A stretch of 64,000 nt of DNA from contig JAFGEZ010000004.1 in NCBI GenBank assembly GCA_016931295.1, positions 34,745-98,744 on the forward strand. Reading direction: 5' to 3'. Origin of the DNA: Candidatus Krumholzibacteriota bacterium (GTDB lineage: Bacteria > Krumholzibacteriota > Krumholzibacteriia > Krumholzibacteriales > Krumholzibacteriaceae). This document shows, piece after piece, positions 24,874 through 40,194 of this stretch. Position 1 is the first letter of the stretch. Each line of letters opens with the position of its first letter. Both the position numbers and the translations under genes were made by a program. A model generated the notes under the pieces. It was not told the origin of the DNA and ran no database searches. It worked only from the letters and a program-made list of their open reading frames with translations.

Positions 24874-27800
24874 GTGTATACCCTCCTCACCGTGGCGAAG
24901 GCCGAGATCAGGCTTCTCCTCAGGAGCTGGTTCTTCCGGATCCTCTCCCTCGCCGCCCTCGCGATCCTGGCCTTCATGAGCCTCGGGCTCTTCACCGGGT
25001 TCTGGGGGCAGCCGTGGGTCTTCCGCGGTCTCGGCACCACGATCCCCCTCATCAATATCCTCTACCTCAACGTGGTGCAGGCGATCGTGGCGGTCTTCCT
25101 CTCGGCCGACTTCCTGAAACGCGACCGCAAGCTCGACACCACCGAGGTCGTCTACATGCGGTCGATGCCGAACGTCACCTACGTCGCCGGCAAGACCCTC
25201 GGGATCCTCGTGGTCTTCGCCCTGCTCGATCTCGTCGTCCTCGTCATGTCGGCCGTCTTCAACATCGCCTTCTCCGGCGGGCCCTTCGTGGCCTCCGCGT
25301 ACATCGTCTACCCGCTCCTCGTGGCCCTTCCGACGATCGTCTTCACGCTGGGCTTCTCCTTTCTCCTCATGACGGTCGTCCGGAACCAGCCGGTCACATT
25401 CGTTCTCCTGCTCGGCGTGATCGGGATCTCCCTCTTCTGGCTCGGTCCCAAGCAGCACGGCCTCTTCGACCTGCTCGGCTTGCACCTGCCCCTCGTCAGG
25501 TCGGGGATCGCCGGCTTCGCCGATCCCTTCGGACTCGTCCTGCAGCGGGGCGTCTTCCTGCTGCTCGGCCTCGCCGGGATCGCGGCCACCTCCCTCAGGC
25601 TCCGCCGGCTCTCCCAGTCGCGCGCGGCGACGGTCGCATCGGGCGTCCTCGCGCTTTTCTTCCTCGCCGCGGCGGTCGCCGCCGCCGGGATGCACGACGC
25701 GCGGTTCCGCCGGGCCGCCGCGGCCCGCGAGGCGATGCGCGCCTTGACGGCGGAGCTCGCCGGCGAACCCGCGCCCGCAGTCGAGCGGTGCGATCTCTCC
25801 CTCGTCCACGAGGGGAACCGGATCGACTGCGAGGCGGCGATCCTGCTCGCCAACGACGGCGACCGGCCGATCGAGCGCTATCTCTTCACGCTCAACCCGG
25901 GGCTCGAGGTGCGCGGGGTCGAACGGGGCGGCCGCGAGGCGGCCTTCACGCGCGACCGTCACGTCCTCTCGGTGACGCCGCCGGCGGCCCTGCCGCCAGG
26001 CGCGCGCGACTCCCTCGTCGTCCAATACGGGGGCGCGATCGACGACGGCGCCTGCTATCTCGACACGGGCGAGGAGGGGCGGGAGCCCTGGTTCCGGATC
26101 GCGATGTTCGTCATCGGCGAGCGCCACGCCTGGGTGACCCCCTCCTGGGTGCTGTTGACCCCCGAGGCGGGGTGGTATCCGCGCGCGGGGATGCCGTACG
26201 ATCCGGCGCGGCCCGAGACGAGGATGGCCGGCTTCGCCCGCTACCGCCTCGACGTGACGACGAGGCCCGAACTCCTTTCCGTCTCGCAGGGCGCGAGGGA
26301 AAAGCGCGGGGAGGGGCGCTGGCTCTTCGAGCCGGAACGTCCGCTCGACGGCCTCACCCTCGCGATCGGCCGGTTCGAGGAGCGGGCGATCGAGGTCGAT
26401 TCCCTCCGGTACGCCCTCTGCATCCGGGAGGGGAACGACTGGTTCGACGAGTACATGGACGCCGTCGGCGACACCCTGCCCGAGCTCGTCCGGGAGGTCC
26501 GGGCCGATTACGAGCGGCTCCTCGGCCTCTCCTATCCCGACCGGCGGTACACGATCGTCGAGGTCCCCGTCACCTTCGTCGCCCGCGAGCGGCTCTGGTC
26601 GATGCAGCGCGAGACGATCCAGCCGGAGATCGTTTTGTTGCCCGAGCGGGGCCTCCTCGTGCAGGAGGCGGATTTCAACATGTTCAAGCGGCAGATGGGC
26701 CGCAGGCGCCGCGGACCGGCCGAGGAGCTGACCCCCGCCGAGGAGCAGAGCCGGCAGTTCACGCGGTTCGCCGGGCGGGTGCTCGCCGGGGAGCTGAGCG
26801 AGCGGGGCTTCATGAACGATCTGTACCAGAACAACCGCATCTTCAACGCCTTCCCGATGTACTACACGCACGTCACACACGTCGGCTCCGGGCGGTGGCC
26901 CGTTCTCGACGTGGCGCTCGAATCGTGGATCGCCGGGCGGATCGAGGGGGAGGCGAGCCCGTTCACGAGCTTCTTCGGCGGGTTGAGCAGCGAGGAGGAG
27001 ACCAACCTCGAACTCGCGAAGACGAGCCTCGCTGATCTCGTGGCCGATCCGGAAAAGCGCGCGGCAGCCCCGGACGCCCTTCGGGCGAAGGGGCGCCAGC
27101 TCTTTCTCCTTCTCCAGCGGCACGCCGGCGAGGAGGCCTTCGCCGCCCTCGTCGACGAAGCGATCGAGGCGGGGCGGTTCGGCGGCATCGATGCCGACCT
27201 GCTGTCCGACGAGATGGAAGGCCGCTTCGGCATCGATCTCGCCGCGACGATCGATCGGTGGTACGGGGGGCGCGACCTCCCCGGCTTCATCCTCGCGGGC
27301 GTCCGCTCCTATACCGTCGTCGACGAGAACGACCGGACGCGCTACGAGGTGCGTTTCGTCGTCGGCAACGACGAGCCGGCGGACGGCGCGGTCGTCGTGA
27401 CCTTCACCGCGCGCGGACGGGGGCGGGGCTTCTTCGGCCCGCCGGGAGGCGGCGACGAGGAGAGTGTCGAACGGACGATCTTCCTCGAGGGGGGACAGGC
27501 CCGGGAGGTGGGGTTCGTCCTCGATTTCCAGCCGCGGCGGATGACCGTCAACACCCTCGTCTCGAAGAATCTTCCCGCGGCGATGATCCGCAACTTCGAC
27601 GATTTCGAGGAGGGATCGGGCGGGATCTTCGACGGCGAGCGTGTCCTCGACGCCATGCCGGCGCTCGCCGAGCCCGGCGAGATCGTCGTCGACGACCTCG
27701 ATCCGGGATTCTCGATCACCGGCGAGCGGAGCGCCGGGCTGCTCCGGCGGCTTTTGCGCCGCGGGCGCGGCGAGGAGGAGAACGAGTACGAAGGGATCGG

Positions 27801-28206
27801 CTTCGGCGCGCCGGAGGTCTGGAAGAAGGGGATCAACACCACCTTCTACGGCAGGCACGTCCTCTCCGCCCATTTCGTCCGGGCGGGGGACGGGAGCAAC
27901 CGCGCCTCCTGGACGGGGACGATCGAGAAGAGCGGCGTCCACGGCGTCTGGGCCTGGGTCGGCTCGGTGGAGTCGCCCTTCGGCAGGGGCCGCCGCGCCA
28001 ACCGGACCCAGGCGGGGAGCTACAGCTATCTCGTGCACCACGACGACGGCATCGACGAGGTGTCCCTCGACGCGCAGAAGGCCGAGGAGGGCTGGAATTT
28101 CCTCGGCTCCTGGTACCTCTCGGCCGGCGAGGCCCGCGTCGAGCTGACCGACGAGACGGACGGCGGGCGCGTCTTCGCCGACGCCGTGAAATGGGTGAGG
28201 CAGTGA
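24874..28206 (+). CDS. ABC-2-type permease fused to large extracytoplasmic M1-aminopeptidase-like (degenerate) domain, paralog B
   Basis: 1110 aa from GTG 24874 (RBS GGGAGG). N-terminal 6-7 TM ABC-2-like region. LGLSYPDRRYTIVEVPVTF segment. No HEXXH. Confidence 0.65.
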   Translation: MYTLLTVAKAEIRLLLRSWFFRILSLAALAILAFMSLGLFTGFWGQPWVFRGLGTTIPLINILYLNVVQAIVAVFLSADFLKRDRKLDTTEVVYMRSMPNVTYVAGKTLGILVVFALLDLVVLVMSAVFNIAFSGGPFVASAYIVYPLLVALPTIVFTLGFSFLLMTVVRNQPVTFVLLLGVIGISLFWLGPKQHGLFDLLGLHLPLVRSGIAGFADPFGLVLQRGVFLLLGLAGIAATSLRLRRLSQSRAATVASGVLALFFLAAAVAAAGMHDARFRRAAAAREAMRALTAELAGEPAPAVERCDLSLVHEGNRIDCEAAILLANDGDRPIERYLFTLNPGLEVRGVERGGREAAFTRDRHVLSVTPPAALPPGARDSLVVQYGGAIDDGACYLDTGEEGREPWFRIAMFVIGERHAWVTPSWVLLTPEAGWYPRAGMPYDPARPETRMAGFARYRLDVTTRPELLSVSQGAREKRGEGRWLFEPERPLDGLTLAIGRFEERAIEVDSLRYALCIREGNDWFDEYMDAVGDTLPELVREVRADYERLLGLSYPDRRYTIVEVPVTFVARERLWSMQRETIQPEIVLLPERGLLVQEADFNMFKRQMGRRRRGPAEELTPAEEQSRQFTRFAGRVLAGELSERGFMNDLYQNNRIFNAFPMYYTHVTHVGSGRWPVLDVALESWIAGRIEGEASPFTSFFGGLSSEEETNLELAKTSLADLVADPEKRAAAPDALRAKGRQLFLLLQRHAGEEAFAALVDEAIEAGRFGGIDADLLSDEMEGRFGIDLAATIDRWYGGRDLPGFILAGVRSYTVVDENDRTRYEVRFVVGNDEPADGAVVVTFTARGRGRGFFGPPGGGDEESVERTIFLEGGQAREVGFVLDFQPRRMTVNTLVSKNLPAAMIRNFDDFEEGSGGIFDGERVLDAMPALAEPGEIVVDDLDPGFSITGERSAGLLRRLLRRGRGEEENEYEGIGFGAPEVWKKGINTTFYGRHVLSAHFVRAGDGSNRASWTGTIEKSGVHGVWAWVGSVESPFGRGRRANRTQAGSYSYLVHHDDGIDEVSLDAQKAEEGWNFLGSWYLSAGEARVELTDETDGGRVFADAVKWVRQ

Positions 28207-28243
28207 CGCCCGGCGCCCGCGTCGCCCGGCGGACACGAGACGG

Positions 28244-29752
28244 ATGCGAGGAGACATGAGACCGAACAGGCACACGATACGCCGCCGGCGGCGAGCCGCC
28301 GCGCTTCTTGCGATCGCGATCGCCGTCGCCGCCGCGCCGGGGGCGCGAGGGGCGGAGCAAATCGACCTCGCGCGGGCGCTCGAGATCGCCATGTCGAACA
28401 GTCCGACGATCAGGAGGCAGCAGAACGCCCTCGAGCGGAGCCAGGAGAATCTCAACCGGCAGCGTGCGCGCCTGCGCACGAGCTTCTCGCTCTCGGTGAC
28501 GCCGATCGACTACAGCGAGCGGACGAACTTCAACGAGCTCTTCTCGACCTTCTACGATACGCGGACGACAACGTCGTCGGGGACCTTCACGATCAGCCAG
28601 CCGATCAAGCTCACCGACGGCACCCTCTACCTCGCCGACAACCTCAGCTACCGCGATTCCTACAGCGGATTCACCGACGAGACGGACATCTCGTACAGCA
28701 ACAGCCTCAGCCTCAACTACCGCCAGCCCCTCTTCACCTACAACGCGACGAGGATGGATACGAGGCGGCTCGAGCTCGCCCTCGAGAACACCGAGCTCTC
28801 CTACGCGATCGCGGTGCTCCAGCTCGAGTCGAACGTGATGAACGATTTCTACGGGGTCTACAAGGCGGGCGAGGAGCTGGCGATCCAGGAGGAGCAGCTT
28901 GCCGCCAAGGAGGAGAGCTACGGGATCGCCCGGCAGAAGGCGGACGCGGGCCTGATGGCCCTCGAGGCCCTCTACCAGGAGGAGGTGGGGCTCGCCCAGA
29001 CCCGCTCGAGCATCGAGACGAGCCGGGTCACCTATCAGTCGCGCCTCGACGGCTTCAAGAGGCTGATCGGCCTCCCCATCGACGAGGAGATCGAGATCGC
29101 CGCCGATATCGGGTACGAGCCGGTCTCCGTCGATTACGAGCAGGCCCTCTCGTACGGGCTCTCCCATCGCATGGAGCTGCGCCAGCGGGCGATCGCCCTC
29201 CAAAGCGCGATGGACGACGTCGTCCAGGCGGGCGCGGACAACGAGTTCGAGGGCGCGCTCGAGCTCTCCTACGGCACCTTCGGAACGAGCGGCAAGCTGG
29301 CCGACGTCTACGACGAGCCGGAGAAAGACCGGGGCTTCGCGATCACCTTCGAGATCCCGATCTGGGACTGGGGGGCGAAGAAATCGGGGATCCGCGCCGC
29401 GGAGACGAGCCTGCGCGACGCCGAGATCGATCTCGAGGAGCTCAAGACGGACATCGTCATCGACATCCGCTCCGCCTGGCGCAACGTCGAGGCGGCGGCC
29501 CGCCAGATCGAGCTGAAGAAGATCGAGGTGCGCAACGCCCGGTTCACCTACGATATCGCCCTCGAGAACTACCGGAACGGCGACATATCGAGCTATGACC
29601 TCAGCCAGCAGCAGACGCAGTTCACGCAGGCGCGTCTCGACGAGACGCAGGCGCTCATCGACTACCGCCTCGCCCTGCTCGAGATGAAGATCACGTCCCT
29701 TTGGGATTTCGAGAAGGAACGCCCCGCCGTCGACGCGCGGGCGCTGCGTTGA
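28244..29752 (+). CDS. TolC-family outer membrane efflux protein
   Basis: 502 aa. Signal peptide, then paired coiled-coil/beta repeats typical of OMF proteins. Confidence 0.8.
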   Translation: MRGDMRPNRHTIRRRRRAAALLAIAIAVAAAPGARGAEQIDLARALEIAMSNSPTIRRQQNALERSQENLNRQRARLRTSFSLSVTPIDYSERTNFNELFSTFYDTRTTTSSGTFTISQPIKLTDGTLYLADNLSYRDSYSGFTDETDISYSNSLSLNYRQPLFTYNATRMDTRRLELALENTELSYAIAVLQLESNVMNDFYGVYKAGEELAIQEEQLAAKEESYGIARQKADAGLMALEALYQEEVGLAQTRSSIETSRVTYQSRLDGFKRLIGLPIDEEIEIAADIGYEPVSVDYEQALSYGLSHRMELRQRAIALQSAMDDVVQAGADNEFEGALELSYGTFGTSGKLADVYDEPEKDRGFAITFEIPIWDWGAKKSGIRAAETSLRDAEIDLEELKTDIVIDIRSAWRNVEAAARQIELKKIEVRNARFTYDIALENYRNGDISSYDLSQQQTQFTQARLDETQALIDYRLALLEMKITSLWDFEKERPAVDARALR

Positions 29753-29774
29753 ATCTCCGCGAAGAGAGGATGAG

Positions 29775-30848
29775 ATGACCCACAAAACCAGGACGTTGCA
29801 CGTGGCGGGGCTTCTCGCGGTCGCCGCGGCCCTTTTTCTCGCCTCCTGCGGCGGATCGGGGGATGAGGAGGCGACCGAGATCGCCGTATCCGTTTCCGTC
29901 GAGGAGATACGCCCCGGCTCGATAGAGACCTTCATCGAGGCGACCGGGACGGCGGCCGCGATCGGCGAGGCGCAGCTCCTCTCCGAGAAGGCGGGCAACT
30001 ACCGGCTGCTGAAGAACCCGGTTACCGGCCGGGCATGGGCGCCGGGGGACCGCGTGGAGGCGGGGGCGGCCCTCGTCCGGCTCGAGAATCCCGAGGAGGA
30101 GAACTCGATCGCGATCGACGCGAGGAAACTCGCGTTCGAGAACGCCGAGCGCGAGCTCGAGAAGCAGCGCTCCCTCTACGAGAAGGGGGGCGTGACCCTC
30201 ACCGAGCTCAACCAGGCGGAGGAGAACTGGCTCAACGCGAAGTACGCGTACGGGAACGCGCGGATCAATCTCGCCAAGCTCACCGTCACCTCGCCGATCG
30301 CCGGCGTGCTCACCTCCCTTCCGTACCGCACGCCCGGCGTGCGGGTCGACGCGGGGACGGAGATCGCGTCGGTCATGGACTTCCGGCGGCTCGTCCTCGA
30401 TGTCGCCCTGCCCGGGAAGGACCTGGATCGCGTGAAACGCGGGCTCGACGTTCGCGTGACGAGCTACGCCGTATCGGGGGACACGCTCGCCGGCACGGTC
30501 GAACGGGTGGGGCCGGCGATCGATCCGGCGACGAGGACCTTTGCCACGTCGATCGTCGTCGAGAACCCCGATCTCCGCTTCCGCCCGGGGATGTTCGTCC
30601 GGGCCGAGGTCGTCACGGCCCGCCGGGACAGCACGATCGTCATTCCGAAAAACATCATCCTCTCCCAGCGGGAAGGCAAGGTCGTCTACATCGTCGAGAA
30701 GGGGGCGGCGCGGAGACGCCGCCTCACGACGGGCCTCGAGAATCCCACCCACGTCGAGGTCGTCGACGGGCTCGCCGAGAACGAGCGGGTCGTCGTCAAG
30801 GGATTCGAGACGCTCCGCAACGGCGCCAAGGTGAAGATCGTCCGGTAA
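29775..30848 (+). CDS. efflux RND/ABC periplasmic adaptor (membrane fusion protein), lipoprotein
   Basis: 357 aa. Lipobox LFLASCGG. Biotinyl-lipoyl/beta-barrel MFP pattern (ITSPIAGVLTSL). Confidence 0.8.
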   Translation: MTHKTRTLHVAGLLAVAAALFLASCGGSGDEEATEIAVSVSVEEIRPGSIETFIEATGTAAAIGEAQLLSEKAGNYRLLKNPVTGRAWAPGDRVEAGAALVRLENPEEENSIAIDARKLAFENAERELEKQRSLYEKGGVTLTELNQAEENWLNAKYAYGNARINLAKLTVTSPIAGVLTSLPYRTPGVRVDAGTEIASVMDFRRLVLDVALPGKDLDRVKRGLDVRVTSYAVSGDTLAGTVERVGPAIDPATRTFATSIVVENPDLRFRPGMFVRAEVVTARRDSTIVIPKNIILSQREGKVVYIVEKGAARRRRLTTGLENPTHVEVVDGLAENERVVVKGFETLRNGAKVKIVR

Positions 30849-30873
30849 CCGGCCGGCGAGGGAAAGAACCCTG

Positions 30874-33800
30874 ATGAAAAGCATCGCGACATTCTCCGTG
30901 CGGCACCCGGTGGCGGTCGTCATGATCGCCCTCGGCATCCTTTTGCTCGGCTACATCTCCTTCACCCGTCTCGGGATCGACCTCTTTCCCGCCCTCGATT
31001 CCCCGCGGCTCTTCGTCGAGCTCGAGACGGCCGAGATGCCGCCGGGGGAGGTCGAGGAGCGCTTCGTCGAGGGGCTCGAGGCGGCGGCCTCCCAGCAGGC
31101 CGACGTCGTCCGGGTCACCTCGGTCACCCGCGTCGGCGCCTCGCGCGTCACCGTCGAGTACTCGTGGAGCGCCGACATGGACGAGGCGTTCCTCAACCTC
31201 CAGAAGGCGGTCACGCAGGTGTCGCGCATGGAGGACGTCGAGGAGCTCGTCATCACCCAGCACGATCCGAACGCCGAGCCGGTCGTCACCCTCGCCCTGC
31301 TGCACCCCGAGATCGACGACATGGACGTCCTTCGCCGCGCGGCCGAGTCGCACGTGCGCAGCGAGCTCGTCCGCATCGAGGGGATCGCCGAGGTGGAGAT
31401 CTCCGGCGACGAGGAGAGGGAGGTCGTCGTCGAGACCGATCCCTACCTCCTCGAGGCGTACGGACTGACGACGTCGGCGATCGCGAGCCGCATCGAGGCG
31501 ATGAACGCCGACGCGACGGGGGGCTCGATCGTCGAGCTGGGGCGCGAGTACGTGATCAGGGGCATGGGGACCTTCGAATCGATCGAGGACATCGAAAACG
31601 CCGTCGTGACCTACGTTTCGCCGGAGGCGGCCGCGGGAGGCGGCGCCCCGGCGGGGAATGCCGCGGCGGGGTCGACAGGCCGGGTGCCCGTCTACCTCGA
31701 GGACGTCGCACGGGTGAGTTTGCGCAACCGCGACCCGGAGAGCATCGTCCGCGTCGACGGCAGGCGCTGCGTGGGGCTCGACGTCTACAAGGAGACGCGG
31801 TTCAACACGGTGCAGGCGGCGCGGGCCGTGATCGGGGAGCTCGACGGCCTCCGCGCGGGCCTCCCCGGCTACGAGCTCGTCGTCGTCCGCGACCAGGGGG
31901 CCTACATCACGGGGGCGATCGACGAGGTCAAGCAGGCCCTCCTCTTCGGGATCCTTCTCGCCGTGGCCGTCCTCTACGTCTTCCTCCGCCGCATCGGCAC
32001 CACGGCGATCGTCTGCGTGGCGATACCGATATCGATCGTGGCCACCTTCAATCTCATGTACTTCACGGGCCTCACCCTCAACATCATGACGCTCGGCGGT
32101 CTCGCCCTCGGGGCGGGCATGCTCGTGGACAACGCGATCGTCGTCGTCGAGAACATCCTGCGCCGGCGGGAGGAAGGGAAGGGGGCCGGCGAGGCGGCGA
32201 TCGAGGGGACGAGCCAGGTGGCCGGGGCCATCACCGCCTCGACGATCACGACGATCGTCGTCTTCCTGCCGATCGTCTACCTGCACGGCGCGGCAGGCGC
32301 CCTCTTCCGCGAGCAGGCGTGGACGGTCGCCTTCGCCCTCGTCTCCTCCCTCGTCGTGGCGGTCCTCATCATCCCGATGCTCGCCGGCCGTTTTCTCCGG
32401 GGCGGCCCGGCGGCGGCGCCGCGATCGATCCGCTTCGGCGGCTACGGGCGCCTGCTCGGCGCGCTCCTCGACAGGCGCCGTCTCGTCATCGGCCTCGCGG
32501 CGCTCCTCGTGGCCGGCGCGGCGGCGCTGCTGCCTTTCGTCGGGAGCGAGTTCATCCCCGGCTCCGGGACGGGCGAGTACACCCTCGAGCTCACGCTTCC
32601 CGAGGGAACGACCCTCGCGCGGACGGCCGCGGCGGTCGAGACGGTCGAGGAAATGATCCGCGAGCGGTTCGGCGACGAGGTGACCTCGATCTACAGCCGG
32701 GTCGGTCCCGGAACGGGGATGATCCGCACCGAGACGTCGGTCTTCGAGGACGAGAACACCGCGGTGATCCGGATCGTTACGGCCGCCGGCGGCGAGGCGG
32801 CGAGCGGGATGACCGCGGCGATCGACGCGATGATCGGGGACATCCCCGAGGTGGATGGGCGGTTCGTCCAGGACCGCTCGGCCCTCCAGACGACGCTCGG
32901 CACGGAGTCCTCGCCCGTCGTCGTCGAGGTGCGGGGGCCCGATCTCGACGTTCTCGCCGATCTCGCCCGGTCGATCAAGGAGATCCTCGCGGCGATCCCC
33001 GGGCTCGCCAATGTCGCGACGAGCTTCGAGGAAGGGCGGCCCGAGGTGCGCGTGGCCGTCGACCGCCGCCGCGCGGGGCACTTCGACGTCGACGTGGGCT
33101 CGATCGCCTCGCAGCTGCGCAACCGCCTCGACGGCACCGACGCCGGCGAGTGGGAGAGCGGGGGCGAGGAGACGCCCATCGTCCTCCGCCAGCCCGACGT
33201 GGGGATCGACGGTCTCGGCGACATCGTCCTCGAGGGGGCGGGCGGCGGGGAGGTGCGCCTCGTCGAGGTCGCCGACATCGGTCTCGGGCAGGCGCCGCGC
33301 GAGATACGCAGGCGCGACCAGGAGCGCGTCGGGCGGGTCACGGCCGACCGGTCCGACGACCGCGCCTTCGACCGTCTCGTGGCGGGGGTGCGCGAGCGCA
33401 TCGCCGCGGACGTCGACCTGCCGCCGGGATACCGCCTCGAGATCACCGGCGAGGAGCTGCTGCGGCAGGAGAGCTTCCGGTCGCTCCGCTTCGCCCTCGT
33501 CCTCTCGGTCGTCCTCGTCTACATGGTCCTCGCAGCCCAGTTCGAATCGCTCCGCCACCCCTTCACGATCCTGCTGACGATCCCGCTCGCCGGCGTCGGG
33601 GCCGTCTTCGCCTTCCTCCTCCTCGGGCGGACGCTGGACGTGATGGCCTACATCGGGATCATCATGCTCGCGGGGATCGCCGTGAACGACTCGATCATCC
33701 TCGTCGACGCGATCGGCGGACTCCGGCGCGGCGGGATGTCGATACGGGACGCGATCGTCGAGGCGGGGGTCCGGCGGATCAGGCCGATCGTCATGACGAG

Positions 33801-33975
33801 CGTGACGACGATCCTCGCCCTCCTCCCCCTCACGCTGGGATTCGGGGAGGGCGCCTCGCTGCGCGCCCCGATGGCGGTGGCAGTCATCGGGGGGCTCGTC
33901 ACCTCGACCCTCCTGACCCTCGCCGTGATCCCCTGCGTCTACCACGTCATCGACGGCCTCGGAAGGGGTGAATAG
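30874..33975 (+). CDS. RND family efflux transporter (AcrB/CzcA-like)
   Basis: 1033 aa. 12-TM RND architecture with two large periplasmic loops. GGAITASTITTIVVFLPI and similar motifs. Confidence 0.9.
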   Translation: MKSIATFSVRHPVAVVMIALGILLLGYISFTRLGIDLFPALDSPRLFVELETAEMPPGEVEERFVEGLEAAASQQADVVRVTSVTRVGASRVTVEYSWSADMDEAFLNLQKAVTQVSRMEDVEELVITQHDPNAEPVVTLALLHPEIDDMDVLRRAAESHVRSELVRIEGIAEVEISGDEEREVVVETDPYLLEAYGLTTSAIASRIEAMNADATGGSIVELGREYVIRGMGTFESIEDIENAVVTYVSPEAAAGGGAPAGNAAAGSTGRVPVYLEDVARVSLRNRDPESIVRVDGRRCVGLDVYKETRFNTVQAARAVIGELDGLRAGLPGYELVVVRDQGAYITGAIDEVKQALLFGILLAVAVLYVFLRRIGTTAIVCVAIPISIVATFNLMYFTGLTLNIMTLGGLALGAGMLVDNAIVVVENILRRREEGKGAGEAAIEGTSQVAGAITASTITTIVVFLPIVYLHGAAGALFREQAWTVAFALVSSLVVAVLIIPMLAGRFLRGGPAAAPRSIRFGGYGRLLGALLDRRRLVIGLAALLVAGAAALLPFVGSEFIPGSGTGEYTLELTLPEGTTLARTAAAVETVEEMIRERFGDEVTSIYSRVGPGTGMIRTETSVFEDENTAVIRIVTAAGGEAASGMTAAIDAMIGDIPEVDGRFVQDRSALQTTLGTESSPVVVEVRGPDLDVLADLARSIKEILAAIPGLANVATSFEEGRPEVRVAVDRRRAGHFDVDVGSIASQLRNRLDGTDAGEWESGGEETPIVLRQPDVGIDGLGDIVLEGAGGGEVRLVEVADIGLGQAPREIRRRDQERVGRVTADRSDDRAFDRLVAGVRERIAADVDLPPGYRLEITGEELLRQESFRSLRFALVLSVVLVYMVLAAQFESLRHPFTILLTIPLAGVGAVFAFLLLGRTLDVMAYIGIIMLAGIAVNDSIILVDAIGGLRRGGMSIRDAIVEAGVRRIRPIVMTSVTTILALLPLTLGFGEGASLRAPMAVAVIGGLVTSTLLTLAVIPCVYHVIDGLGRGE

Positions 33976-34006
33976 ACCGGCCGCGCCCGCGGCGCGCCGC
34001 CAGCCG

Positions 34007-37000
34007 ATGAGCATCATCGAGGGCGCCATCCGGCGCAGGACACTCGTCGCCATGATCTTCACCGGGGCGGTTCTCCTCGGCGTCGTCTCGTGGCGGCAGC
34101 TCCCCGTCGAACTCATCCCGAGCATGGAACTGCCGATGCTCGTCGTGAGCGTCTCGAGCCGCGCCTCCGCCGACCCCGAGACGATCGAGCGCCAGGCCGT
34201 GCTCGCCGTCGAGGGGGCGATCGGCACCCTCGAGGGGATCGAGAGCATCGAGACGCGCATCCGGCAGCGGAGCGCCGGGATCATGATCTCCTACCTCCAG
34301 GGCACGGACATGAAGTACGCCTACCTCCGGCTCGAGGAGAAGGTGAACCTCGTCCGCGCCTCCCTGCCGGACGGCTACGACGTCGCCGTTTCCGCGCCGC
34401 TGGACTTCTCGATGGCCGACGAGCAGCTCATGACCCTCCAGGCGCTCGGCGAGGGGGGCGTCGACCGGGTGCGCAGCGTCGTCGAGCAGCGGGTCGTCTC
34501 CCGGATCGAGGGGGTCGACGGCGTGGCCGCGGTCGGCGTGGCCGGGGGGAGCGAGGAGGCGGTCGAGATCCTCCTCGACGAGACGGCCTGTCTCGCGGTC
34601 GGCGTGACCGCCGCCGACGTCGCCGCGATCGTCAACGGCGGCGGCCCGAGCGACGCATTCGTCGGGCTCGCCGTCGACGGGGCCGAGCGGTGGTTCGTGA
34701 CGGTCTCCTCGTCGTACGAAGACGTCCGCGACATCGAGGATCTCGTCGTCCGCGGCGAGGGGGACGTCCGCCTCGGGGACATCGCGGAGATCAGGCTCGG
34801 GGCGAAGGAGGAGACGAGCATCAGCCGGGTGAACGGCAAGGACGCCGTCACGATCACCGTCACCCGCGAGAGCCAGGTCAACATCATCGACCTGTCCGGG
34901 CGCGTCCAGAAGACGATCGGCGAGATCAACCGCGATCTCGCCTCCCTCGGCGTCGAGCTCGCCGTCGAGACGGACGCGGCCGAGGCGATGCGGGAGAACG
35001 TCGATCTCGTCGTCCAGCTCGCCGTCGTCGGGGGGCTCTTCGCCGTCCTCGTCCTCTGGATGTTCCTCGGCAACGTCCGGCTCGTCGCCACGATCGCGCT
35101 GGCGATCCCCGTGTCCATCCTCGCGGCCTTCAACTTCTTCTACGCCGCCGACATCTCGATCAACCTCTTCACCCTCGTCGGGCTCGCGCTCGTCGTGGGA
35201 ATGCTGCTCGACAACAGCATCGTCGTCCTCGAGAACATCTACCGGCACCTCTCGTTCAACCGCGGCGACGTGACGGCCGCCGTTGCCGGGGGCACCGGCG
35301 AGGTCTGGCGGTCGATCCTCGCCGCCACGCTCACGACCGTCACCGTCTTTCTCACCTTCGTCTTCTCGGAGAGGATGGAGATCCGCCTGCTCGGCACCCA
35401 CCTCTCCGTCTCGGTCGTCTCCACCCTCCTCGTCTCCCTCGTCGTGGCCCTGCTCCTCGTGCCCGTCGTGACCCACGGCTTCCTCTCGCGCCGCGGCGGC
35501 GTCGACCACGCCCGTTTCCGCATCGTCACCAGGCGGAACCGGCTGATGCAGGCCTACACGACGCTCCTCAAGACGGCGCTGCGCCACCCGGCGCGGACGA
35601 TCGTTCTCGCCGTCGTCGCCTTCTTCTTCTCGCTCGCCCTCGCCATCGGCATGACGGCGGCTTCGGCCCCGGAAGAGGAGCCGAACCAGATCGACGTCTA
35701 CGTGACGATGCCGGAGGGGACGACGCTCGAGGCCACCGACGCGGCCATCGCCGACGTCGAGCAACGCCTCTCCGATCTCCCCGAGCGGGAACAGCTCCTC
35801 ACGCGCGTCGAGGCGGGGAGCGCGATGCTGCAGATCGACCTGAAGGAAGGCTACTGGGAGGAGCGGCGCTACACCTACGCGGCCGTCAAGGAGGACGTCA
35901 AGAGCCGCACGGACGAGCTGCGGGGCGGCGATGTCTCTATCGGCGAGAATCCCTCGGCCACGGGCTATCACGTGGTCGGCGGGGGAGGCGGCGGCGCGGG
36001 GGGCGCCGGGGGTCTTTTGGGCGGAGCGGCGACAACGGAGGAGATCCACGTGGAGGGGGACGATTTCGGCGTGCTGATGAACGTCGCCGAGGATCTCGTC
36101 TCCTACCTCGAGGACCTCTCGACCGTCTCGTCTGCCTCGCACGACGCGAGCGAGAACAGCCCCGAGCTGCACCTCTTCTTCGACGACGCCGTCGCCGGCG
36201 ACCGGAACGTGGCCCTCTCCGGGATCAGGCGGGAGCTCGCGGCCTTCACCGACGAGTACGGCGCCTCGGCCGTCCTCCATCGCGCGGGGGAGCGCATACC
36301 GATCGTCATCCGCACGGACGAGGTGGCGGCCGAGGGGGGCTCGGCGGGCAAGACGATCGACGAACTCCGCAGTCTTTCCGTGGCGACCTCGGACGGCGGC
36401 ACGGTGGAGCTCGGACAGATCGCCCGCTTCGTCTACGCCTTCGGCACGCCGCGGATCAACCGCTTCAACCAGGAGAAGCGCGTCACCGTGCGCTACGACT
36501 TCGCCTCGGAGGTCATGCAGTCCCGATCACTCCTCGGCGCGGCTCGCGGCGAGGTGGACGAACTCGTCGCGGGGCTCCGCCTCCCCGACGGCGTCGCCCT
36601 CGACATCGTCCACGGCGATCCCGAGTACCGCGAGTTCCTCTTCCTGATTTTCGTCGCCTTCATCCTGATCTACATGATCCTCGCCGCCGTCTTCGAGTCG
36701 CTCACCGCCCCGCTCGTCATCCTCTTCACGATCCCCCTCGCCGGCGTCGGGGCCTTCGTCCTGCTCATCCTCACCGGAACCCCCCTCGTCTCGATGTACA
36801 CGATGACCGGGCTCCTCATCCTCCTCGGCGTCGTCGTCAACAACGGGATCATCCTCATCGACTATACGCGGATACTGCGCGGGCGGGGATACCGCCGCGC
36901 CCGCGCGCTCATGACGGCGGGGCAGGCGCGCCTCCGGCCGATCATGATCACGGCGGTGACGACGATCGTCGGCATGATCCCCCTCGCGATGGGGAAGATC

Positions 37001-38752
37001 GAGCAGGCGACGATCCTCGGCGCTCCCTTCGCGATCACGATCATCGGCGGGCTCGCCTTCGGGACGGTCTTCACGCTCGTCCTCATACCGGTCGCCTACT
37101 CGGGGCTCGAGAACACGCTCGAGTGGATGCATCGCCGGGACCGGCGGCTCGTTCTGCTGCAGGCCGTCCTCTTCGCCGGCGGCGTCTGGCTCGCCTGGGC
37201 GCGGATCGACTCGCTCCTCTGGCGGATCGCCGCGATCTTCTCCCTGCTCTTCCTCGTGCCGGGATGCACCTGGTTCGTTCTGGCGAGCCTGCGACGGGCG
37301 CGGGCCGAGCTCGTTCCCGCGGAAGACGAGGTGGTCGTCAGCGTGCGCAACCTCGCCAAGGATTACGAACGGCCCACGCGCTTCGTCCGCGAGTGGCGCA
37401 AGGGGGCGCGGATCGCCGGCGAGAACGGCGGCGGGACGTCCACGTCGCGCATCCCCGGCGGGCTTCGCTGGGAGGCGCCGCTGCTCGCGTTCGCCGCCTA
37501 CTTCGTCTACGTCTACCTCGTGTCGGGCTTCTGGATATTCCTCCTCTCCCACGCCGTCTGGGCACTGGCGTGGCGCGCCTGGCGGTCGATCGAAACCGGT
37601 CTCGCCGCCCGGAGCGCGAGCGGCGAACGGATCGACCGCCTCTTTCGCGAGCTCCTCCTCTGGGCGTTCCCGGCGGCGAACCTCGTTTTCTTCTGGACGC
37701 GTTGGGAATCGCGGGCCGCCGTCGTCTTCGCGGCCGTCCTCTGGTTCGGCGCCCTCGGCGTGTACGCGCTCGCCGGGCGGGTGCGATCGGGACGCGTCGA
37801 CTTCGATCTCATCGTCGGCCGTTTCGCCGGGATCCGGCTCGCCGTCTACCGAGCCGTCTGGGCGCTGCCCCTTCTCGGACGGCCGCGGCGGCCCTTCCGG
37901 GCGCTCGGCGGCGTCTCGATGGAGATCGGCCGGGGGATGTTCGGTCTGCTCGGCCCGAACGGCGCGGGGAAGACGACGCTCATGCGTGTCGTCTGCGGGA
38001 TTCTCGAGCAGAGCTACGGCAAGGTCTTCATCAACGGGATCGACACGGCGGAGCGTCGCGAGGAGCTCCAGGGTCTCATCGGCTATCTCCCGCAGGAGTT
38101 CGGCACCTACGAGAACATGACGGCGCGCGAGTTCCTCGACTACCAGGCGATCCTCCGCGGGCTCGTCGATCGCGACGCCCGCGACGCGCGGGTCGACTAC
38201 GTCCTCGGGGCGGTCCACATGGACGAGCACGCCAACCGGCGGATCGGCGCGTTCTCCGGGGGGATGAAGCAGCGGATCGGGATCGCCCAGACCCTGCTCC
38301 ACCTGCCGCGGATCCTCGTCGTCGACGAGCCCACCGCGGGGCTCGACCCGCGCGAGCGGATCCGTTTCCGCAACCTCCTCGTCGAGTTGAGCAGGGAGCG
38401 GGTGGTCATTTTCTCGACGCACATCATCGAGGACATCTCGAGCTCGTGCAGCCTGGTGGCCGTCCTGAGCGAGGGGCTTCTCCGCTACCTCGGCGAACCG
38501 GCACGGATGACGGAGAGGGCCGAGGGGCGCGTGTGGATGGTGACGGTGCCCCCCGCCGAGTTCGAGGCGCTCCTCGCCCGCCACCGCGTCGTGCATCACA
38601 TGCGCGACGGGGCGATGGTGCGCGCGCGGGTCCTCGCCGGGGAGAAGCCCCACGCCGCGGCGGAGCGGGCCCGGCCGAGCCTCGAGGACGCCTACATCTG
38701 GCTGCTTCGCGGGAGCGGCGCGGAAGGGAGTCTGCCCCATGCCGGCAGGTAA
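34007..38752 (+). CDS. RND efflux transporter fused in frame to a TM linker and ABC nucleotide-binding domain
   Basis: Single uninterrupted reading frame of about 1580 aa (track ORF 33968..38752; likely ATG 34007). Residues about 1-1050 form a complete RND pump. They are followed by about 6 hydrophobic helices, then a full ABC NBD (GPNGAGKTT, FSGGMKQRIGIAQ, VVDEPTAGLD, STHIIEDI) paralogous to 23946..24830. Overlaps the downstream permease gene by 14 nt. Confidence 0.7.
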   Translation: MSIIEGAIRRRTLVAMIFTGAVLLGVVSWRQLPVELIPSMELPMLVVSVSSRASADPETIERQAVLAVEGAIGTLEGIESIETRIRQRSAGIMISYLQGTDMKYAYLRLEEKVNLVRASLPDGYDVAVSAPLDFSMADEQLMTLQALGEGGVDRVRSVVEQRVVSRIEGVDGVAAVGVAGGSEEAVEILLDETACLAVGVTAADVAAIVNGGGPSDAFVGLAVDGAERWFVTVSSSYEDVRDIEDLVVRGEGDVRLGDIAEIRLGAKEETSISRVNGKDAVTITVTRESQVNIIDLSGRVQKTIGEINRDLASLGVELAVETDAAEAMRENVDLVVQLAVVGGLFAVLVLWMFLGNVRLVATIALAIPVSILAAFNFFYAADISINLFTLVGLALVVGMLLDNSIVVLENIYRHLSFNRGDVTAAVAGGTGEVWRSILAATLTTVTVFLTFVFSERMEIRLLGTHLSVSVVSTLLVSLVVALLLVPVVTHGFLSRRGGVDHARFRIVTRRNRLMQAYTTLLKTALRHPARTIVLAVVAFFFSLALAIGMTAASAPEEEPNQIDVYVTMPEGTTLEATDAAIADVEQRLSDLPEREQLLTRVEAGSAMLQIDLKEGYWEERRYTYAAVKEDVKSRTDELRGGDVSIGENPSATGYHVVGGGGGGAGGAGGLLGGAATTEEIHVEGDDFGVLMNVAEDLVSYLEDLSTVSSASHDASENSPELHLFFDDAVAGDRNVALSGIRRELAAFTDEYGASAVLHRAGERIPIVIRTDEVAAEGGSAGKTIDELRSLSVATSDGGTVELGQIARFVYAFGTPRINRFNQEKRVTVRYDFASEVMQSRSLLGAARGEVDELVAGLRLPDGVALDIVHGDPEYREFLFLIFVAFILIYMILAAVFESLTAPLVILFTIPLAGVGAFVLLILTGTPLVSMYTMTGLLILLGVVVNNGIILIDYTRILRGRGYRRARALMTAGQARLRPIMITAVTTIVGMIPLAMGKIEQATILGAPFAITIIGGLAFGTVFTLVLIPVAYSGLENTLEWMHRRDRRLVLLQAVLFAGGVWLAWARIDSLLWRIAAIFSLLFLVPGCTWFVLASLRRARAELVPAEDEVVVSVRNLAKDYERPTRFVREWRKGARIAGENGGGTSTSRIPGGLRWEAPLLAFAAYFVYVYLVSGFWIFLLSHAVWALAWRAWRSIETGLAARSASGERIDRLFRELLLWAFPAANLVFFWTRWESRAAVVFAAVLWFGALGVYALAGRVRSGRVDFDLIVGRFAGIRLAVYRAVWALPLLGRPRRPFRALGGVSMEIGRGMFGLLGPNGAGKTTLMRVVCGILEQSYGKVFINGIDTAERREELQGLIGYLPQEFGTYENMTAREFLDYQAILRGLVDRDARDARVDYVLGAVHMDEHANRRIGAFSGGMKQRIGIAQTLLHLPRILVVDEPTAGLDPRERIRFRNLLVELSRERVVIFSTHIIEDISSSCSLVAVLSEGLLRYLGEPARMTERAEGRVWMVTVPPAEFEALLARHRVVHHMRDGAMVRARVLAGEKPHAAAERARPSLEDAYIWLLRGSGAEGSLPHAGR

Positions 38753-39461
38753 ACGGATCGCGGACGCCATCGATCTCGTGCGGCGGATCGTCCGCCACAA
38801 CCTGAAGATCGTCTTCGCGGGGAAGTTCGTCTATTTCCTCGGCGGGGCCGTCCTCTTCTACCTCGGCGTGACCGCGATCAACATCTTCGGCGAGGAGGCC
38901 GTGCCGACGGCCGGCACGGTCTACGATCTCCTGCTCTTCCCCGGGCTGCTCCTCGTCTTCTATCCGACGGTCTTCGGCATCCAGCAGGACGTCGACACGC
39001 GGATGATCGAGATCCTCTTCGGCATCCCCGACTACCGGTACAAGGTGTGGCTCGTCCGCCTCGTTCTCATCTACGCCATCGTCTTCGCGCTCCTCGTGCC
39101 CCTCGCCCTCTTCGCCGAGCTCGCCCTCGCGCCGATCGACGTCGGGGCGATGGTTTGGGAGCTCATGTTCCCGATCTTCTTCCTCGGCGGCGTCGCATTC
39201 ATGCTCTCGACGGTCGTCCGGTCGGGGAACGGGACGGCGGTGATCATGATCGTCCTGGCCGCGGGCTTCCTCTTCGCCGCGGGCCAGATCGGGGCGAGCC
39301 GGTGGAACGTCTTCCTCAATCCCTTCCGGCTCCCCGACGGGATGAACGAGTCCGTCTGGGCCGACGTCATCCTCAAGAACCGGATCTTCCTCGCGGCGGG
39401 AGCGGTCGTCTCCTTCCTCGCCGGCCTCTTCAACCTGCAGAAGCGCGAGAAGTTCGTCTGA
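38739..39461 (+). CDS. ABC-2 family permease (6 TM)
   Basis: 240 aa hydrophobic protein. RBS GGAAGGGAG. Start overlaps the end of the RND::NBD gene. Confidence 0.7.
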   Translation: MPAGKRIADAIDLVRRIVRHNLKIVFAGKFVYFLGGAVLFYLGVTAINIFGEEAVPTAGTVYDLLLFPGLLLVFYPTVFGIQQDVDTRMIEILFGIPDYRYKVWLVRLVLIYAIVFALLVPLALFAELALAPIDVGAMVWELMFPIFFLGGVAFMLSTVVRSGNGTAVIMIVLAAGFLFAAGQIGASRWNVFLNPFRLPDGMNESVWADVILKNRIFLAAGAVVSFLAGLFNLQKREKFV

Positions 39462-40153: not shown

Positions 40154-40194
40154 CGTCGTTTCCTTTCACCGTCGGTTCGTCTTGGGCCCGCCGC

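What the first reader, a model, noticed from the sequence alone, without database searches (positions are those of the whole stretch)
34007..38752. Single polypeptide fusing a complete RND transporter to an ABC nucleotide-binding domain
The reading frame runs uninterrupted for about 1580 codons. Residues about 1-1050 form a full 12-TM RND pump ending ...IPVAYSGLENTLEW. It continues through about six more hydrophobic helices into a canonical ABC NBD: Walker A GPNGAGKTT, signature FSGGMKQRIGIAQ, Walker B VVDEPTAGLD, H-loop STHIIEDI. The next gene, overlapping by 14 nt, is an ABC-2 permease, which is the TMD partner. A proton-motive-force-driven RND exporter covalently joined to an ATP-hydrolysing domain is not a described architecture. 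The even number of linker helices in each stretch keeps both modules cytoplasm-facing, which argues against a chance fusion.
Basis: seen in the sequence. Interest (0 to 1): 0.85.

Follow-up and report, generated by a model that had tools for sequence, protein, structure and literature searches.

The report
Natural RND pump–ABC ATPase fusion protein
One gene really does encode a complete RND efflux pump joined through six extra membrane helices to an ABC ATPase. The fusion is conserved in a seven-gene operon across many bacterial phyla and I found no description of it in the literature, so it points to an envelope export machine that physically joins two transporter classes normally treated as separate.

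Summary
Window 33968/34007..38752 (+) is one coding frame of 1594/1581 aa. It holds a full-length RND permease, six extra TM helices and a catalytically intact ABC ATPase. It is not a lost stop. The junction Trp is invariant. In 30 of 35 species-level genomes, cultured isolates included, the orthologue is one uninterrupted ORF of 1562-1616 aa. An independent 99.6%-identical assembly is also in frame.

The extra helices split as 2+4, and the four-helix bundle is inserted inside the NBD between strand β1 and β2. The next gene (240 aa, annotated "hypothetical") has the type V (ABC-2) permease fold.

The fusion sits in a conserved operon: ABC ATPase (46% paralogue of the fused NBD), giant ABC-2 permease, OMF, MFP, RND1, RND2::NBD, small ABC-2 permease.

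Both RND paralogues have Asn in place of AcrB's essential D408 and K940.

Most likely this is a type V ABC exporter tethered to a heterotrimeric RND tripartite pump for two-stage export. The closest analogue is mycobacterial MmpL7+DrrABC. An ATP-driven RND is not excluded.

Nine full-text literature searches found no description; NCBI names the protein only "efflux RND transporter permease subunit".

The parts
33968..38752 (+). Fused gene g6, RND2::TM13-18::NBD. GenBank MBN1884258.1, 1594 aa from GTG 33968; the probable true start is ATG 34007.
   Evidence: Continuous ORF. Constant GC3 phase. Pfam ACR_tran plus ABC_tran. Exact match to the NCBI protein. Orthologues of 1562-1616 aa in 30 genomes.
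34016..37102 (+). RND permease module (ORF residues 17-1045): 12 TM helices and two periplasmic loops. It includes an RND2-specific Gly-rich insertion at about residues 665-700.
   Evidence: ACR_tran E 5.5e-162 over the full model. The best solved relative is MdtB, 9lyq. The Gly-rich loop replaces AcrB 669-678 in RND2 paralogues only.
35204..35236 (+). TM4 motif LLDNSIVVLEN. AcrB D407 is kept; D408 is replaced by Asn.
   Evidence: Alignment with E. coli AcrB, MdtB and MdtC and 58 family RNDs. PDB alignments.
36830..36964 (+). TM10-TM11 motifs VVVNNGIILID and ARLRPIMITAVTT. AcrB K940 is replaced by Asn; R971 and T978 are kept.
37121..37132 (+). Junction GAG TGG ATG CAT (E-W-M-H). The Trp codon 37124-37126 is the site where a lost stop was suspected.
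   Evidence: This Trp is invariant in 16 of 16 aligned homologues at 52-60% identity. The following Met is not conserved (F/L/I/W elsewhere), so no conserved internal start exists.
37142..37303 (+). TM13-TM14 hairpin directly after RND TM12.
   Evidence: AF2 helices 20-40 and 44-73 with pLDDT 80-94. Family hydropathy profile. Coordinates.
37331..37426 (+). NBD strand β1 with the A-loop Tyr (VVVSVRNLAKDY), followed by the invariant amphipathic helix RFVREWRKG.
   Evidence: AF2 strand 85-92 and helix 99-114. K, R, R, E and G are invariant in A1 and A2. NCBIfam NBD models match only from their position 15-17 onward.
37457..37786 (+). TM15-TM18, a four-helix membrane insertion inside the NBD between β1 and β2.
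37916..38707 (+). NBD core plus C-terminal domain. It carries Walker A (37952-37978), Q-loop (38087-38098), signature (38252-38290), Walker B with the catalytic Glu (38312-38347) and H-loop (38414-38437).
38739..39461 (+). g7, a 240-aa six-TM type V (ABC-2) permease and the presumed TMD partner. GenBank MBN1884259.1, annotated 'hypothetical protein'.
30874..33975 (+). g5, RND1: a second full-length RND paralogue and the presumed heterotrimer partner. It shows the same D/N/N/R/T pattern.
   Evidence: ACR_tran E 2.7e-214. Alignable to RND2 at 29% identity over the N-terminal ~460 residues. An RND1 lies upstream of the fusion wherever sequence allows. Relay residues.
29775..30848 (+). g4, periplasmic adaptor (MFP).
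   Evidence: TIGR01730 RND_mfp scores 187.6 bits, above its cutoff of 94.9. Pfam HlyD_D23.
28244..29752 (+). g3, TolC-like outer-membrane factor.
   Evidence: Pfam OEP E 1.5e-40. TIGR01844 E 4.3e-29.
24874..28206 (+). g2, a 1110-aa protein: N-terminal ABC-2-like permease, about 800 aa of ectodomain, and Golvesin_C.
   Evidence: Pfam Golvesin_C. Homologues carry ABC2_membrane_2 and weak Peptidase_M1. HExxH is absent in 117 of 120 members. It lies directly upstream of the OMF in 29 of the 30 uninterrupted loci whose upstream flank is held.
23946..24830 (+). g1, a free ABC ATPase of 294 aa. It is a 46%-identical paralogue of the fused NBD, C-terminal domain included.
   Evidence: It is present upstream of g2 in Mangrovibacterium (L090) and a Calditrichaeota MAG (L091). 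The two paralogue groups diverged before the phyla did.
20351..23668 (+). g0, a lineage-specific paralogue of g2 (33% identity, 1105 aa, Golvesin_C).
   Evidence: It is absent from L090 and L091.

Best explanation
This is a genuine, ancient gene fusion, and the window comes from a Candidatus Krumholzibacteriota MAG. An RND permease (RND2) is covalently tethered to a membrane-anchored ABC ATPase of the DrrA/NosF/ABCG (type V, 'ABC-2') class. The tether is a two-helix hairpin plus a four-helix bundle inserted in the NBD. Inferred steps follow. With the adjacent ABC-2 permease g7, the fused NBD forms an ATP-driven type V exporter or floppase that sits beside the RND. RND2 assembles with its paralogue RND1 into a heterotrimer, as in MdtBC, which docks to the operon's MFP and OMF. 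The ABC module extracts or flips a hydrophobic or amphipathic substrate at the inner membrane. It hands the substrate directly to the RND, which passes it through the MFP-OMF duct across the outer membrane. This would be a hard-wired two-stage export line. The trimer-versus-dimer mismatch could be solved in two ways. In one, an RND1:RND2 = 1:2 trimer supplies two fused NBDs. In the other, a 2:1 trimer supplies one fused NBD that pairs with the free paralogue g1. Shown here: the architecture, its conservation, the folds, intact ATPase motifs, the operon, and the altered RND relay. Inferred: complex formation, stoichiometry, hand-off, and the substrate (unknown, possibly an envelope lipid or glycolipid rather than drugs).
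Against: There is no experimental or structural evidence for any complex, stoichiometry or substrate. AF2 was run on single chains only, and coordinates could not be inspected. The four-helix insertion in the NBD and the loss of D408/K940 in both RNDs are not required by a simple hand-off model. They may instead point to direct mechanical coupling, as in the rival below. One lineage (L088/L089) has split the protein and lacks RND1, MFP and OMF directly upstream of it, so covalent linkage and the full operon are not absolutely obligatory.
Confidence: 0.55

Rival explanations
1. ATP-driven or ATP-gated RND pump. ATP binding and hydrolysis in the fused NBD dimer is transmitted through TM13-18 to the RND transmembrane domain. 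It replaces or supplements the proton relay as the driver of the periplasmic conformational cycle. g7 serves as a stator or accessory TMD.
For: Both RND paralogues have Asn at AcrB D408 and K940. All closest solved HAE-1 pumps keep DD and K at these positions, and in AcrB they are required for activity (established knowledge: mutagenesis of D407, D408, K940). The NBD is held close to the membrane at two points, about 11 residues after TM14 and again via TM15-18 inserted in its β1-β2 loop. That looks more like a force-transmitting element than a flexible tether. The linker carries invariant residues and an invariant RFxREWKxG helix. A published suggestion holds that the relay-less MmpL7 works as a partner or scaffold of the ABC exporter DrrABC (PMC11539658).
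Against: D407, R971 and T978 are strictly conserved, so a reduced proton pathway is still plausible. An unrelated Bacteroidota RND (L073) also has Asn at position 940, so that substitution is not unique to ABC-linked pumps. The NBD has a conventional, conserved type V permease partner encoded next to it, which already accounts for the ATPase. No known RND uses ATP.
Confidence: 0.2
2. Co-localisation or stoichiometric co-expression only. The ABC-2 exporter and the RND pump act on related substrates but are mechanistically independent. The fusion merely guarantees co-assembly, membrane targeting or equal dosage. Alternatively, the NBD acts as an ATP-sensing regulator of the pump.
For: Gene fusions of pathway partners often reflect co-regulation. 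A natural fission variant exists in two independent assemblies (L088/L089), showing that the two halves can be separate polypeptides. The operon also carries a second complete ABC-2 pair, g1-g2, that is not fused.
Against: The linker length, helix number and many linker residues are conserved across phyla at only 27-36% overall identity. The linker family is never seen outside the fusion. The unusual insertion inside the NBD would be an odd solution for mere tethering. The seven-gene synteny holds wherever it can be assessed.
Confidence: 0.2
3. Artefact or pseudogene: a sequencing or assembly error, or a recent stop-loss mutation, joined two adjacent genes (RND, and ABC ATPase starting at MHRRDRR).
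For: A single-base change (TGA to TGG) or a 1-nt indel at GAGTGGATGCAT could in principle create such a fusion. The high-GC genome has long spurious ORFs. A few relatives are split (L086, L087, L037, L001, L002).
Against: The Trp is invariant and the Met is not conserved. Thirty independent genomes have the uninterrupted ORF. An independent assembly agrees. The GC3 phase is constant. The split relatives are frameshifts inside conserved sequence, with the conserved residues continuing in another frame, or come from long-read contigs with many frameshifts.
Confidence: 0.02

Closest known systems
MmpL7 (RND) + DrrABC (type V ABC exporter) in mycobacterial PDIM export
   Same: An RND-superfamily protein without the canonical proton relay is functionally linked to a DrrA-type NBD and ABC-2 permeases. 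DrrA's closest solved homologue, TM_1403, is also the top structural match of the fused NBD. Drr has two ABC-2 permeases (DrrB and DrrC), paralleling g2 and g7 here (PMC11539658).
   Different: In mycobacteria the proteins are separate and a physical complex is only hypothesised. MmpL7 belongs to the HAE-2/MmpL type and has no MFP or OMF. Here the RND is HAE-1-like with MFP and OMF, is covalently fused to the NBD, and keeps D407, R971 and T978.
MdtABC (E. coli), heterotrimeric HAE-1 RND pump
   Same: Two tandem RND paralogues share one operon with a single MFP. MdtB is the best solved relative of RND2. A heterotrimer gives a natural route to a non-3-fold number of NBDs (PMC8277102; the B2C stoichiometry is from memory of Kim, Nagore and Nikaido 2010).
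   Different: MdtB and MdtC keep DD and K in the relay. They have no extra TM helices, no NBD and no associated ABC-2 permease.
NosDFY and other bacterial type V (ABC-2) exporters (Wzm-Wzt, PmtCD, Rv1217c-1218c, ABCG/ABCA)
   Different: In all of these the NBD is a contiguous soluble domain, free or fused to its own TMD. None has a four-TM insertion between β1 and β2, and none is fused to an RND.
MacAB-TolC, ABC-driven tripartite efflux pump
   Same: An ATP-hydrolysing inner-membrane component works with an MFP and a TolC-like OMF.
   Different: MacB is a type VII ABC protein with four TM helices, a periplasmic domain and an N-terminal NBD. It acts as a dimer and has no RND component. No FtsX/MacB domain is found here.

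Membership tests
RND superfamily, HAE-1-like permease (AcrB/MdtB type) | 12-TM core with two large periplasmic loops, giving a full-length match to Pfam ACR_tran above the gathering score | tested here: met
   541 bits against a cutoff of 28; residues 17-1045 cover model positions 2-1018 of 1021.
RND superfamily, HAE-1-like permease (AcrB/MdtB type) | Canonical proton-relay residues D407, D408 (TM4), K940 (TM10), R971 and T978 (TM11) | tested here: not met
   The pattern is D/N/N/R/T in the window's RND2 and RND1. It holds in 28 of 31 RND2 (the rest have S or T at 408) and 26 of 27 RND1 orthologues. AcrB, MdtB, MdtC and the top solved pumps have DD and K.
RND superfamily, HAE-1-like permease (AcrB/MdtB type) | Reaches the curated cutoff of a named NCBIfam RND family | tested here: not met
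   The best hit is NF033617 RND_permease_2 at 501.9 bits against a cutoff of 1250. All other RND models are also below cutoff.
RND superfamily, HAE-1-like permease (AcrB/MdtB type) | Encoded together with a periplasmic adaptor and an outer-membrane factor | tested here: met
   OEP and RND_mfp genes lie directly upstream (TIGR01730 above its cutoff). This arrangement is conserved in relatives.
RND superfamily, HAE-1-like permease (AcrB/MdtB type) | Trimeric assembly (homo- or heterotrimer) | not testable with these tools
   This needs multimer modelling or experiment. Only the tandem RND1/RND2 arrangement was shown.
ABC ATPase (nucleotide-binding domain) | Walker A, Q-loop, LSGGQ-type signature, Walker B with catalytic Glu, D-loop and H-loop; Pfam ABC_tran above the gathering score | tested here: met
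   94.6 bits against a cutoff of 25. All motifs are present and invariant in 16 and 105 homologues.
ABC ATPase (nucleotide-binding domain) | Contiguous soluble domain (β1, A-loop, β2, Walker A without interruption) | tested here: not met
   About 165 residues, including four TM helices, are inserted between the β1/A-loop Tyr and β2. NBD family profiles match only from position ~15 onward.
Type V (ABC-2) ABC exporter | Six-TM permease with the type V fold as TMD partner | tested here: met
Type V (ABC-2) ABC exporter | NBD of the DrrA/NosF/ABCG/ABCA class | tested here: met
Type V (ABC-2) ABC exporter | 2 NBD : 2 TMD complex, with NBD and TMD actually associating | not testable with these tools
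   No multimer prediction or experiment is available. Adjacency and co-conservation only.
MacB-type (type VII) tripartite ABC pump | FtsX/MacB four-TM permease with a periplasmic domain, fused to an N-terminal NBD | tested here: not met
   No FtsX/MacB domain appears in Pfam or NCBIfam scans, the NBD is C-terminal, and the partner TMD has the type V fold.

The most novel reading that the evidence does not exclude
The RND conformational cycle in this family is powered or gated by ATP hydrolysis in the covalently attached, membrane-inserted NBD rather than by the canonical proton relay, which lacks D408 and K940 in both paralogues. That would be the first ATP-coupled member of the RND superfamily and a fourth energetic class of tripartite efflux machine.
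Probability: 0.2. Interest if true: 0.95.

Novelty: new variant of a known kind. Interest (0 to 1): 0.8.

Why it matters
Tripartite envelope exporters are classified by the energy source of their inner-membrane component: RND and MFS use the proton-motive force, ABC uses ATP.

A conserved natural polypeptide that hard-wires an RND permease to an ABC ATPase breaks that dichotomy. It is found mainly in phyla of the Fibrobacterota-Chlorobiota-Bacteroidota (FCB) group: Bacteroidota including gut Parabacteroides and Bacteroides, Calditrichota, Latescibacterota, Krumholzibacteriota, Zixibacteria and KSB1.

It acts as a 'Rosetta-stone' fusion, predicting that RND and type V ABC exporters form physical complexes. 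That bears directly on the open question of how MmpL7 and DrrABC cooperate in mycobacterial lipid export.

It also poses a clear structural puzzle, trimer against dimer, that can be tackled in cultured organisms such as Marivirga, Prolixibacter, Mangrovibacterium and Draconibacterium.

Two further unrecognised elements come with it. One is an NBD with a four-helix membrane insertion. The other is a family of more than 5000 'hypothetical' proteins that are type V ABC permeases.

Tried and rejected
- **Lost stop or frameshift at 37124-37129.** Rejected: the Trp is invariant, the Met is not conserved, 30 orthologues are uninterrupted, and an independent assembly agrees.
- **Conserved internal start producing a separate NBD protein.** Rejected: the residue after the Trp is F, L, I, W or M.
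- **Alternative long ORF 34090..38805.** Rejected as a high-GC artefact.
- **Stand-alone relatives (P0061, P0082, P0118).** L086 is a frameshift just after GLEN, with the conserved WIKS continuing in another frame. L087 has a frameshift inside TM12 and its junction is in frame. L088/L089 are a true fission caused by a ~60-nt tandem duplication. All are derived states, not the ancestral one.
- **Hits of 600-940 aa.** They looked like 'half-RND' fusions but are contig-end fragments or frameshifted long-read gene calls. Full-length proteins do exist in the same collections.
- **Is D408N/K940N specific to ABC-linked RNDs?** Inconclusive. The only unrelated RND in the fetched loci (L073) has DD but also N940, and no wider survey was possible.
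- **Are g2's TMD and g7 recognisable paralogues (hhalign)?** Only weakly, at E 0.026.
- **g2 as an active M1 peptidase.** Rejected: HExxH is absent in 117 of 120 members.
- **Literature.** Nine full-text searches using RND-ABC fusion phrases, Pfam names and review texts found no description. The 2021 Chem Rev review does not mention it in the held text. The Nikaido 2018 review could not be retrieved under the id I recalled.
- **AFDB fold search.** Unavailable.
Full report
**1. The observation**

The window has about 69% GC, so long spurious ORFs are common. Two overlapping + strand ORFs span the region.
- The ORF 34090..38805 translates to Arg/Pro/Gly-rich nonsense.
- The ORF 33968..38752 translates to a coherent protein.

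Third-position GC is 0.87-0.99 in a single phase from about 33950 to 38750. It does not change at the RND/linker junction. It switches phase only at the start of the next gene.

Pfam finds ACR_tran over residues 17-1045 (E 5.5e-162, essentially the whole model). It finds ABC_tran over residues 1315-1457 (E 1e-26). The exact 1594-aa sequence, starting at GTG 33968, is GenBank MBN1884258.1, 'efflux RND transporter permease subunit [Candidatus Krumholzibacteriota bacterium]', on a 164.8-kb contig. The ATG at 34007 fits RND N-termini better.

**2. Is the fusion real?**

The junction DNA reads GAG TGG ATG CAT. A TGA-to-TGG change or a 1-nt indel could have fused two genes, so I tested this directly.

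(a) A search with the C-terminal 541 aa returned many proteins at 47-63% identity. They carry both PF00873 and PF00005 and come from Bacteroidales, Zixibacteria, Krumholzibacteria, Latescibacterota and others.

(b) In an alignment of 15 of these with the window, all are in frame across the junction. The junction Trp is invariant. The following residue is M, F, L, I or W, so there is no conserved internal start.

(c) A scan of one genome per species (GTDB) gave 35 loci matching across RND C-terminus, linker and NBD.
- In 30 of them the frame is one uninterrupted ORF of 1562-1616 aa.
- Four others are cut by contig ends, and one long-read MAG is frameshifted.
- The 30 include Prolixibacter bellariivorans ATCC BAA-1284, Marivirga sericea DSM 4125 and Marivirga tractuosa (complete genome).
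- They also include Draconibacterium mangrovi, Maribellus maritimus, Parabacteroides massiliensis, Bacteroides sp. 224, and Calditrichaceae and Latescibacterota MAGs.
- The Mangrovibacterium diazotrophicum isolate genome has a 1575-aa gene call with both domains.

(d) An independent ENA assembly (L085) is 99.6% identical to window 31141-38524 without a single gap. Its gene call is 1571 aa.

(e) I searched 1.84 billion cluster representatives with the 281-aa junction-plus-linker segment (ORF residues 1040-1320) alone. This found 91 proteins. Every full-length one is 1550-1590 aa with the linker at about 1020-1305, and the rest are fragments.

The 600-940-aa hits are contig-end fragments or products of frameshifted long-read contigs.

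Three apparent stand-alone versions were inspected at the DNA level.
- L086 has a frameshift right after GLEN, and the conserved Trp continues in another frame.
- L087 has a frameshift inside TM12, and its junction is in frame.
- L088/L089, two independent assemblies, carry a ~60-nt tandem duplication of the β1 segment. It creates a stop and a new ATG, splitting the protein into RND2+TM13-14 (1101 aa) and β1+TM15-18+NBD (483 aa).

Fission therefore happens, but it is rare and derived. The artefact hypothesis is rejected.

**3. Anatomy of the C-terminal half**

A family hydropathy profile and an AF2 model built on 105 homologues (mean pLDDT 80; TM helices 83-94) agree. In order, the elements are:
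- RND TM12, followed by a short basic cytoplasmic turn (MHRRDRR).
- The TM13-TM14 hairpin, followed by about 11 residues.
- A β-strand, VVVSVRNLAKDY. This is the NBD's strand β1 with the A-loop Tyr.
- An invariant amphipathic helix, RFVREWRKG.
- Four TM helices, TM15-18, followed by a short helix.
- β2, Walker A and the rest of the NBD, then a C-terminal domain.

The 'six linker helices' are therefore 2 + 4, and the four-helix bundle is an insertion inside the NBD. This fits the fact that NCBIfam NBD profiles match only from their position ~15 onward. The even numbers of helices and the positive-inside distribution keep every soluble segment cytoplasmic.

All catalytic motifs (Walker A, Q-loop, signature, Walker B with Glu, D-loop, H-loop) are invariant. 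The NBD is the most conserved part of the protein, at 61-70% identity between phyla. The RND part is at 36-47% and the linker at 26-36%.

**4. The downstream gene**

g7 (38739..39461) overlaps the fusion by 14 nt. It has no Pfam or NCBIfam hit on its own. More than 5000 database relatives were found, and every one that carries a source name is called 'hypothetical'. Of 71 members scanned, 20 give weak ABC2_membrane_3 hits.

**5. The operon**

All gaps from 23946 to 39461 are 45 nt or less, or are overlaps. The next gene is convergent. The genes are:
- g1, an ABC ATPase.
- g2, a 1110-aa protein with an N-terminal ABC-2-like TMD, a large ectodomain and Golvesin_C.
- g3, a TolC-like OMF.
- g4, an MFP (TIGR01730, above its cutoff).
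- g5, RND1.
- g6, the fusion.
- g7, the small permease.

tblastn of these proteins against 37 related loci shows g2-OMF-MFP-RND1-fusion-g7 in the same order wherever the contig allows. With longer upstream flanks, Mangrovibacterium and a Calditrichaeota MAG also show g1 in front of g2.

g1 is a 46%-identical paralogue of the fused NBD, C-terminal domain included. Orthologues within each group are 60-70% identical and only about 40% identical between groups, so the duplication predates the phyla. g0 (20351..23668) is a lineage-specific paralogue of g2 at 33% identity.

The conserved unit thus contains two RND paralogues, two NBD paralogues, two ABC-2-type permeases, one MFP and one OMF.

**6. 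The RND proton relay**

I aligned both window RNDs and 56 orthologues with E. coli AcrB, MdtB and MdtC, taken from NC_000913.3.
- AcrB D407/D408/K940/R971/T978 corresponds to D/N/N/R/T in RND2 in 28 of 31 sequences; the rest have S or T at 408.
- The same pattern holds in RND1 in 26 of 27 sequences.
- Six further loci agree.

All best-matching solved HAE-1 pumps (CmeB, MdtB, MexB-like, MtrD-like) have DD and K at these positions. In AcrB these residues are essential (established knowledge). Retention of D407, R971 and T978 leaves room for a reduced proton pathway. One unrelated Bacteroidota RND has DD with N940. I therefore cannot say the change is specific to ABC-linked pumps.

RND2, but not RND1, also has a 20-35-residue Gly-rich insertion. 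It replaces the AcrB 669-678 loop at the bottom of the PC1/PC2 cleft.

**7. Mechanism**

*Shown:* a conserved covalent link between a tripartite-type RND subunit and a catalytically intact type V NBD. The NBD has its own type V permease next door.

*Inferred, best explanation (0.55):* a hard-wired two-stage exporter.
- The ABC module (fused NBD plus g7) extracts or flips a hydrophobic or amphipathic substrate at the inner membrane.
- It passes the substrate to the RND1/RND2 heterotrimer, which expels it through MFP-OMF.

The closest precedent is PDIM export in mycobacteria, which requires both the RND protein MmpL7 and the type V exporter DrrABC. The authors note that MmpL7 lacks the canonical proton relay, and they propose that it scaffolds DrrABC. 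They name TM_1403 as DrrA's closest solved homologue (PMC11539658). TM_1403 is also the top structural hit here.

The trimer/dimer mismatch has at least two solutions suggested by the operon.
- RND1:RND2 = 1:2, so that two fused NBDs dimerise over (g7)2.
- RND1:RND2 = 2:1, as in MdtB2C. Heterotrimers are documented for MdtBC (PMC8277102), and the stoichiometry is from memory. The single fused NBD would then pair with the free paralogue g1 over a g2/g7 TMD pair.

I could not discriminate between these.

*Rivals:*
- An ATP-driven or ATP-gated RND (0.2). It is supported by the altered relay and the double membrane anchoring of the NBD.
- Mere co-localisation or regulation (0.2).
- Artefact (0.02).

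The substrate is unknown. The giant non-catalytic ectodomain protein g2 lacks HExxH in 117 of 120 members. Together with the phyletic distribution, this hints at an envelope component rather than drugs, but that is speculation.

**8. Comparison with what is known, and novelty**

The RND part is RND by fold and context. It fails the canonical relay test and reaches no curated NCBIfam cutoff. The NBD is a true ABC ATPase but is not contiguous. g7 and the NBD are type V by fold. The system is not MacB-like.

Nine full-text searches of about 8 million papers and preprints, plus a targeted reading of the 2021 Chem Rev review, found no description of an RND-ABC fusion. NCBI names the proteins only 'efflux RND transporter permease subunit'. 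Pfam and NCBIfam have no model for the linker or for g7.

The sequences are public, including in RefSeq isolates, so the novelty is in recognising the architecture, not in the data. I rate it a new variant of known kinds (RND tripartite pump plus type V ABC exporter) with high interest. It is conserved, widespread, mechanistically puzzling and testable in cultured bacteria.

Noticed in passing
window 35950-36070 (ORF residues ~665-700); also L004, L007, L012, L022, L034, L086-L091: RND2 (the fused paralogue) has a 20-35-residue Gly-rich low-complexity insertion, GGGGGGAGGAGGLLGG in the window. AcrB has the 669-678 loop here, at the bottom of the PC1/PC2 cleft. RND1 lacks the insertion.
   Followed up: partly
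window 35204-35236 and 36830-36862 (RND2); equivalent sites in RND1 at 30874-33975: Both RND paralogues of the operon have Asn at AcrB positions D408 and K940, and this is conserved across phyla. About half of the RND1 orthologues have Asp at position 941, whereas RND2 always has Asn there.
   Followed up: partly
window 20351-23668 and 24874-28206: Two 33%-identical giant proteins (1105 and 1110 aa) share one layout: an N-terminal ABC-2-like permease, an ~800-aa ectodomain and a Golvesin_C domain. Homologues give weak Peptidase_M1 hits, but HExxH is missing in 117 of 120. g0 is a lineage-specific duplicate, absent from the Mangrovibacterium and Calditrichaeota operons.
   Followed up: partly
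window 38739-39461: The g7 family has more than 5000 database members, every named one called 'hypothetical', with no Pfam or NCBIfam model. Yet it has a clear type V ABC permease fold.
   Followed up: yes
L088 5750-6120 and L089 2780-3140: A natural fission of the fusion. A ~60-nt tandem duplication of the β1 segment introduces a stop and a new ATG. In this locus there is no RND1, MFP or OMF directly upstream.
   Followed up: partly
window 38525-38599 versus L085 7386-7430: The independent 99.6%-identical assembly is 30 nt shorter, in frame, within the C-terminal domain of the NBD. It also carries a frameshift in g7 (split into 185 + 74 aa). This is either strain variation or assembly error.
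   Followed up: no
window 14690-17476 (-): A 928-aa protein with a FlgD_ig/CHU_C-type C-terminal domain (type IX secretion signal) and a dockerin-like hit. It suggests a T9SS cargo in this Krumholzibacteriota genome.
   Followed up: no
window 39572-42072 (-) and 42105-43361 (+): A 2-oxoacid:ferredoxin oxidoreductase gene pair (POR gamma; TPP/POR_N/4Fe-4S fusion) lies convergent to the operon. It is followed by a 4Fe-4S protein. These mark the operon's 3' boundary.
   Followed up: no
The word-indexed homologue search listed no protein longer than 943 aa for the C-terminal query. Full-length orthologues of 1550-1600 aa are nevertheless in the collections. This is a tool property that could mislead towards a 'half-RND' reading.
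   Followed up: yes
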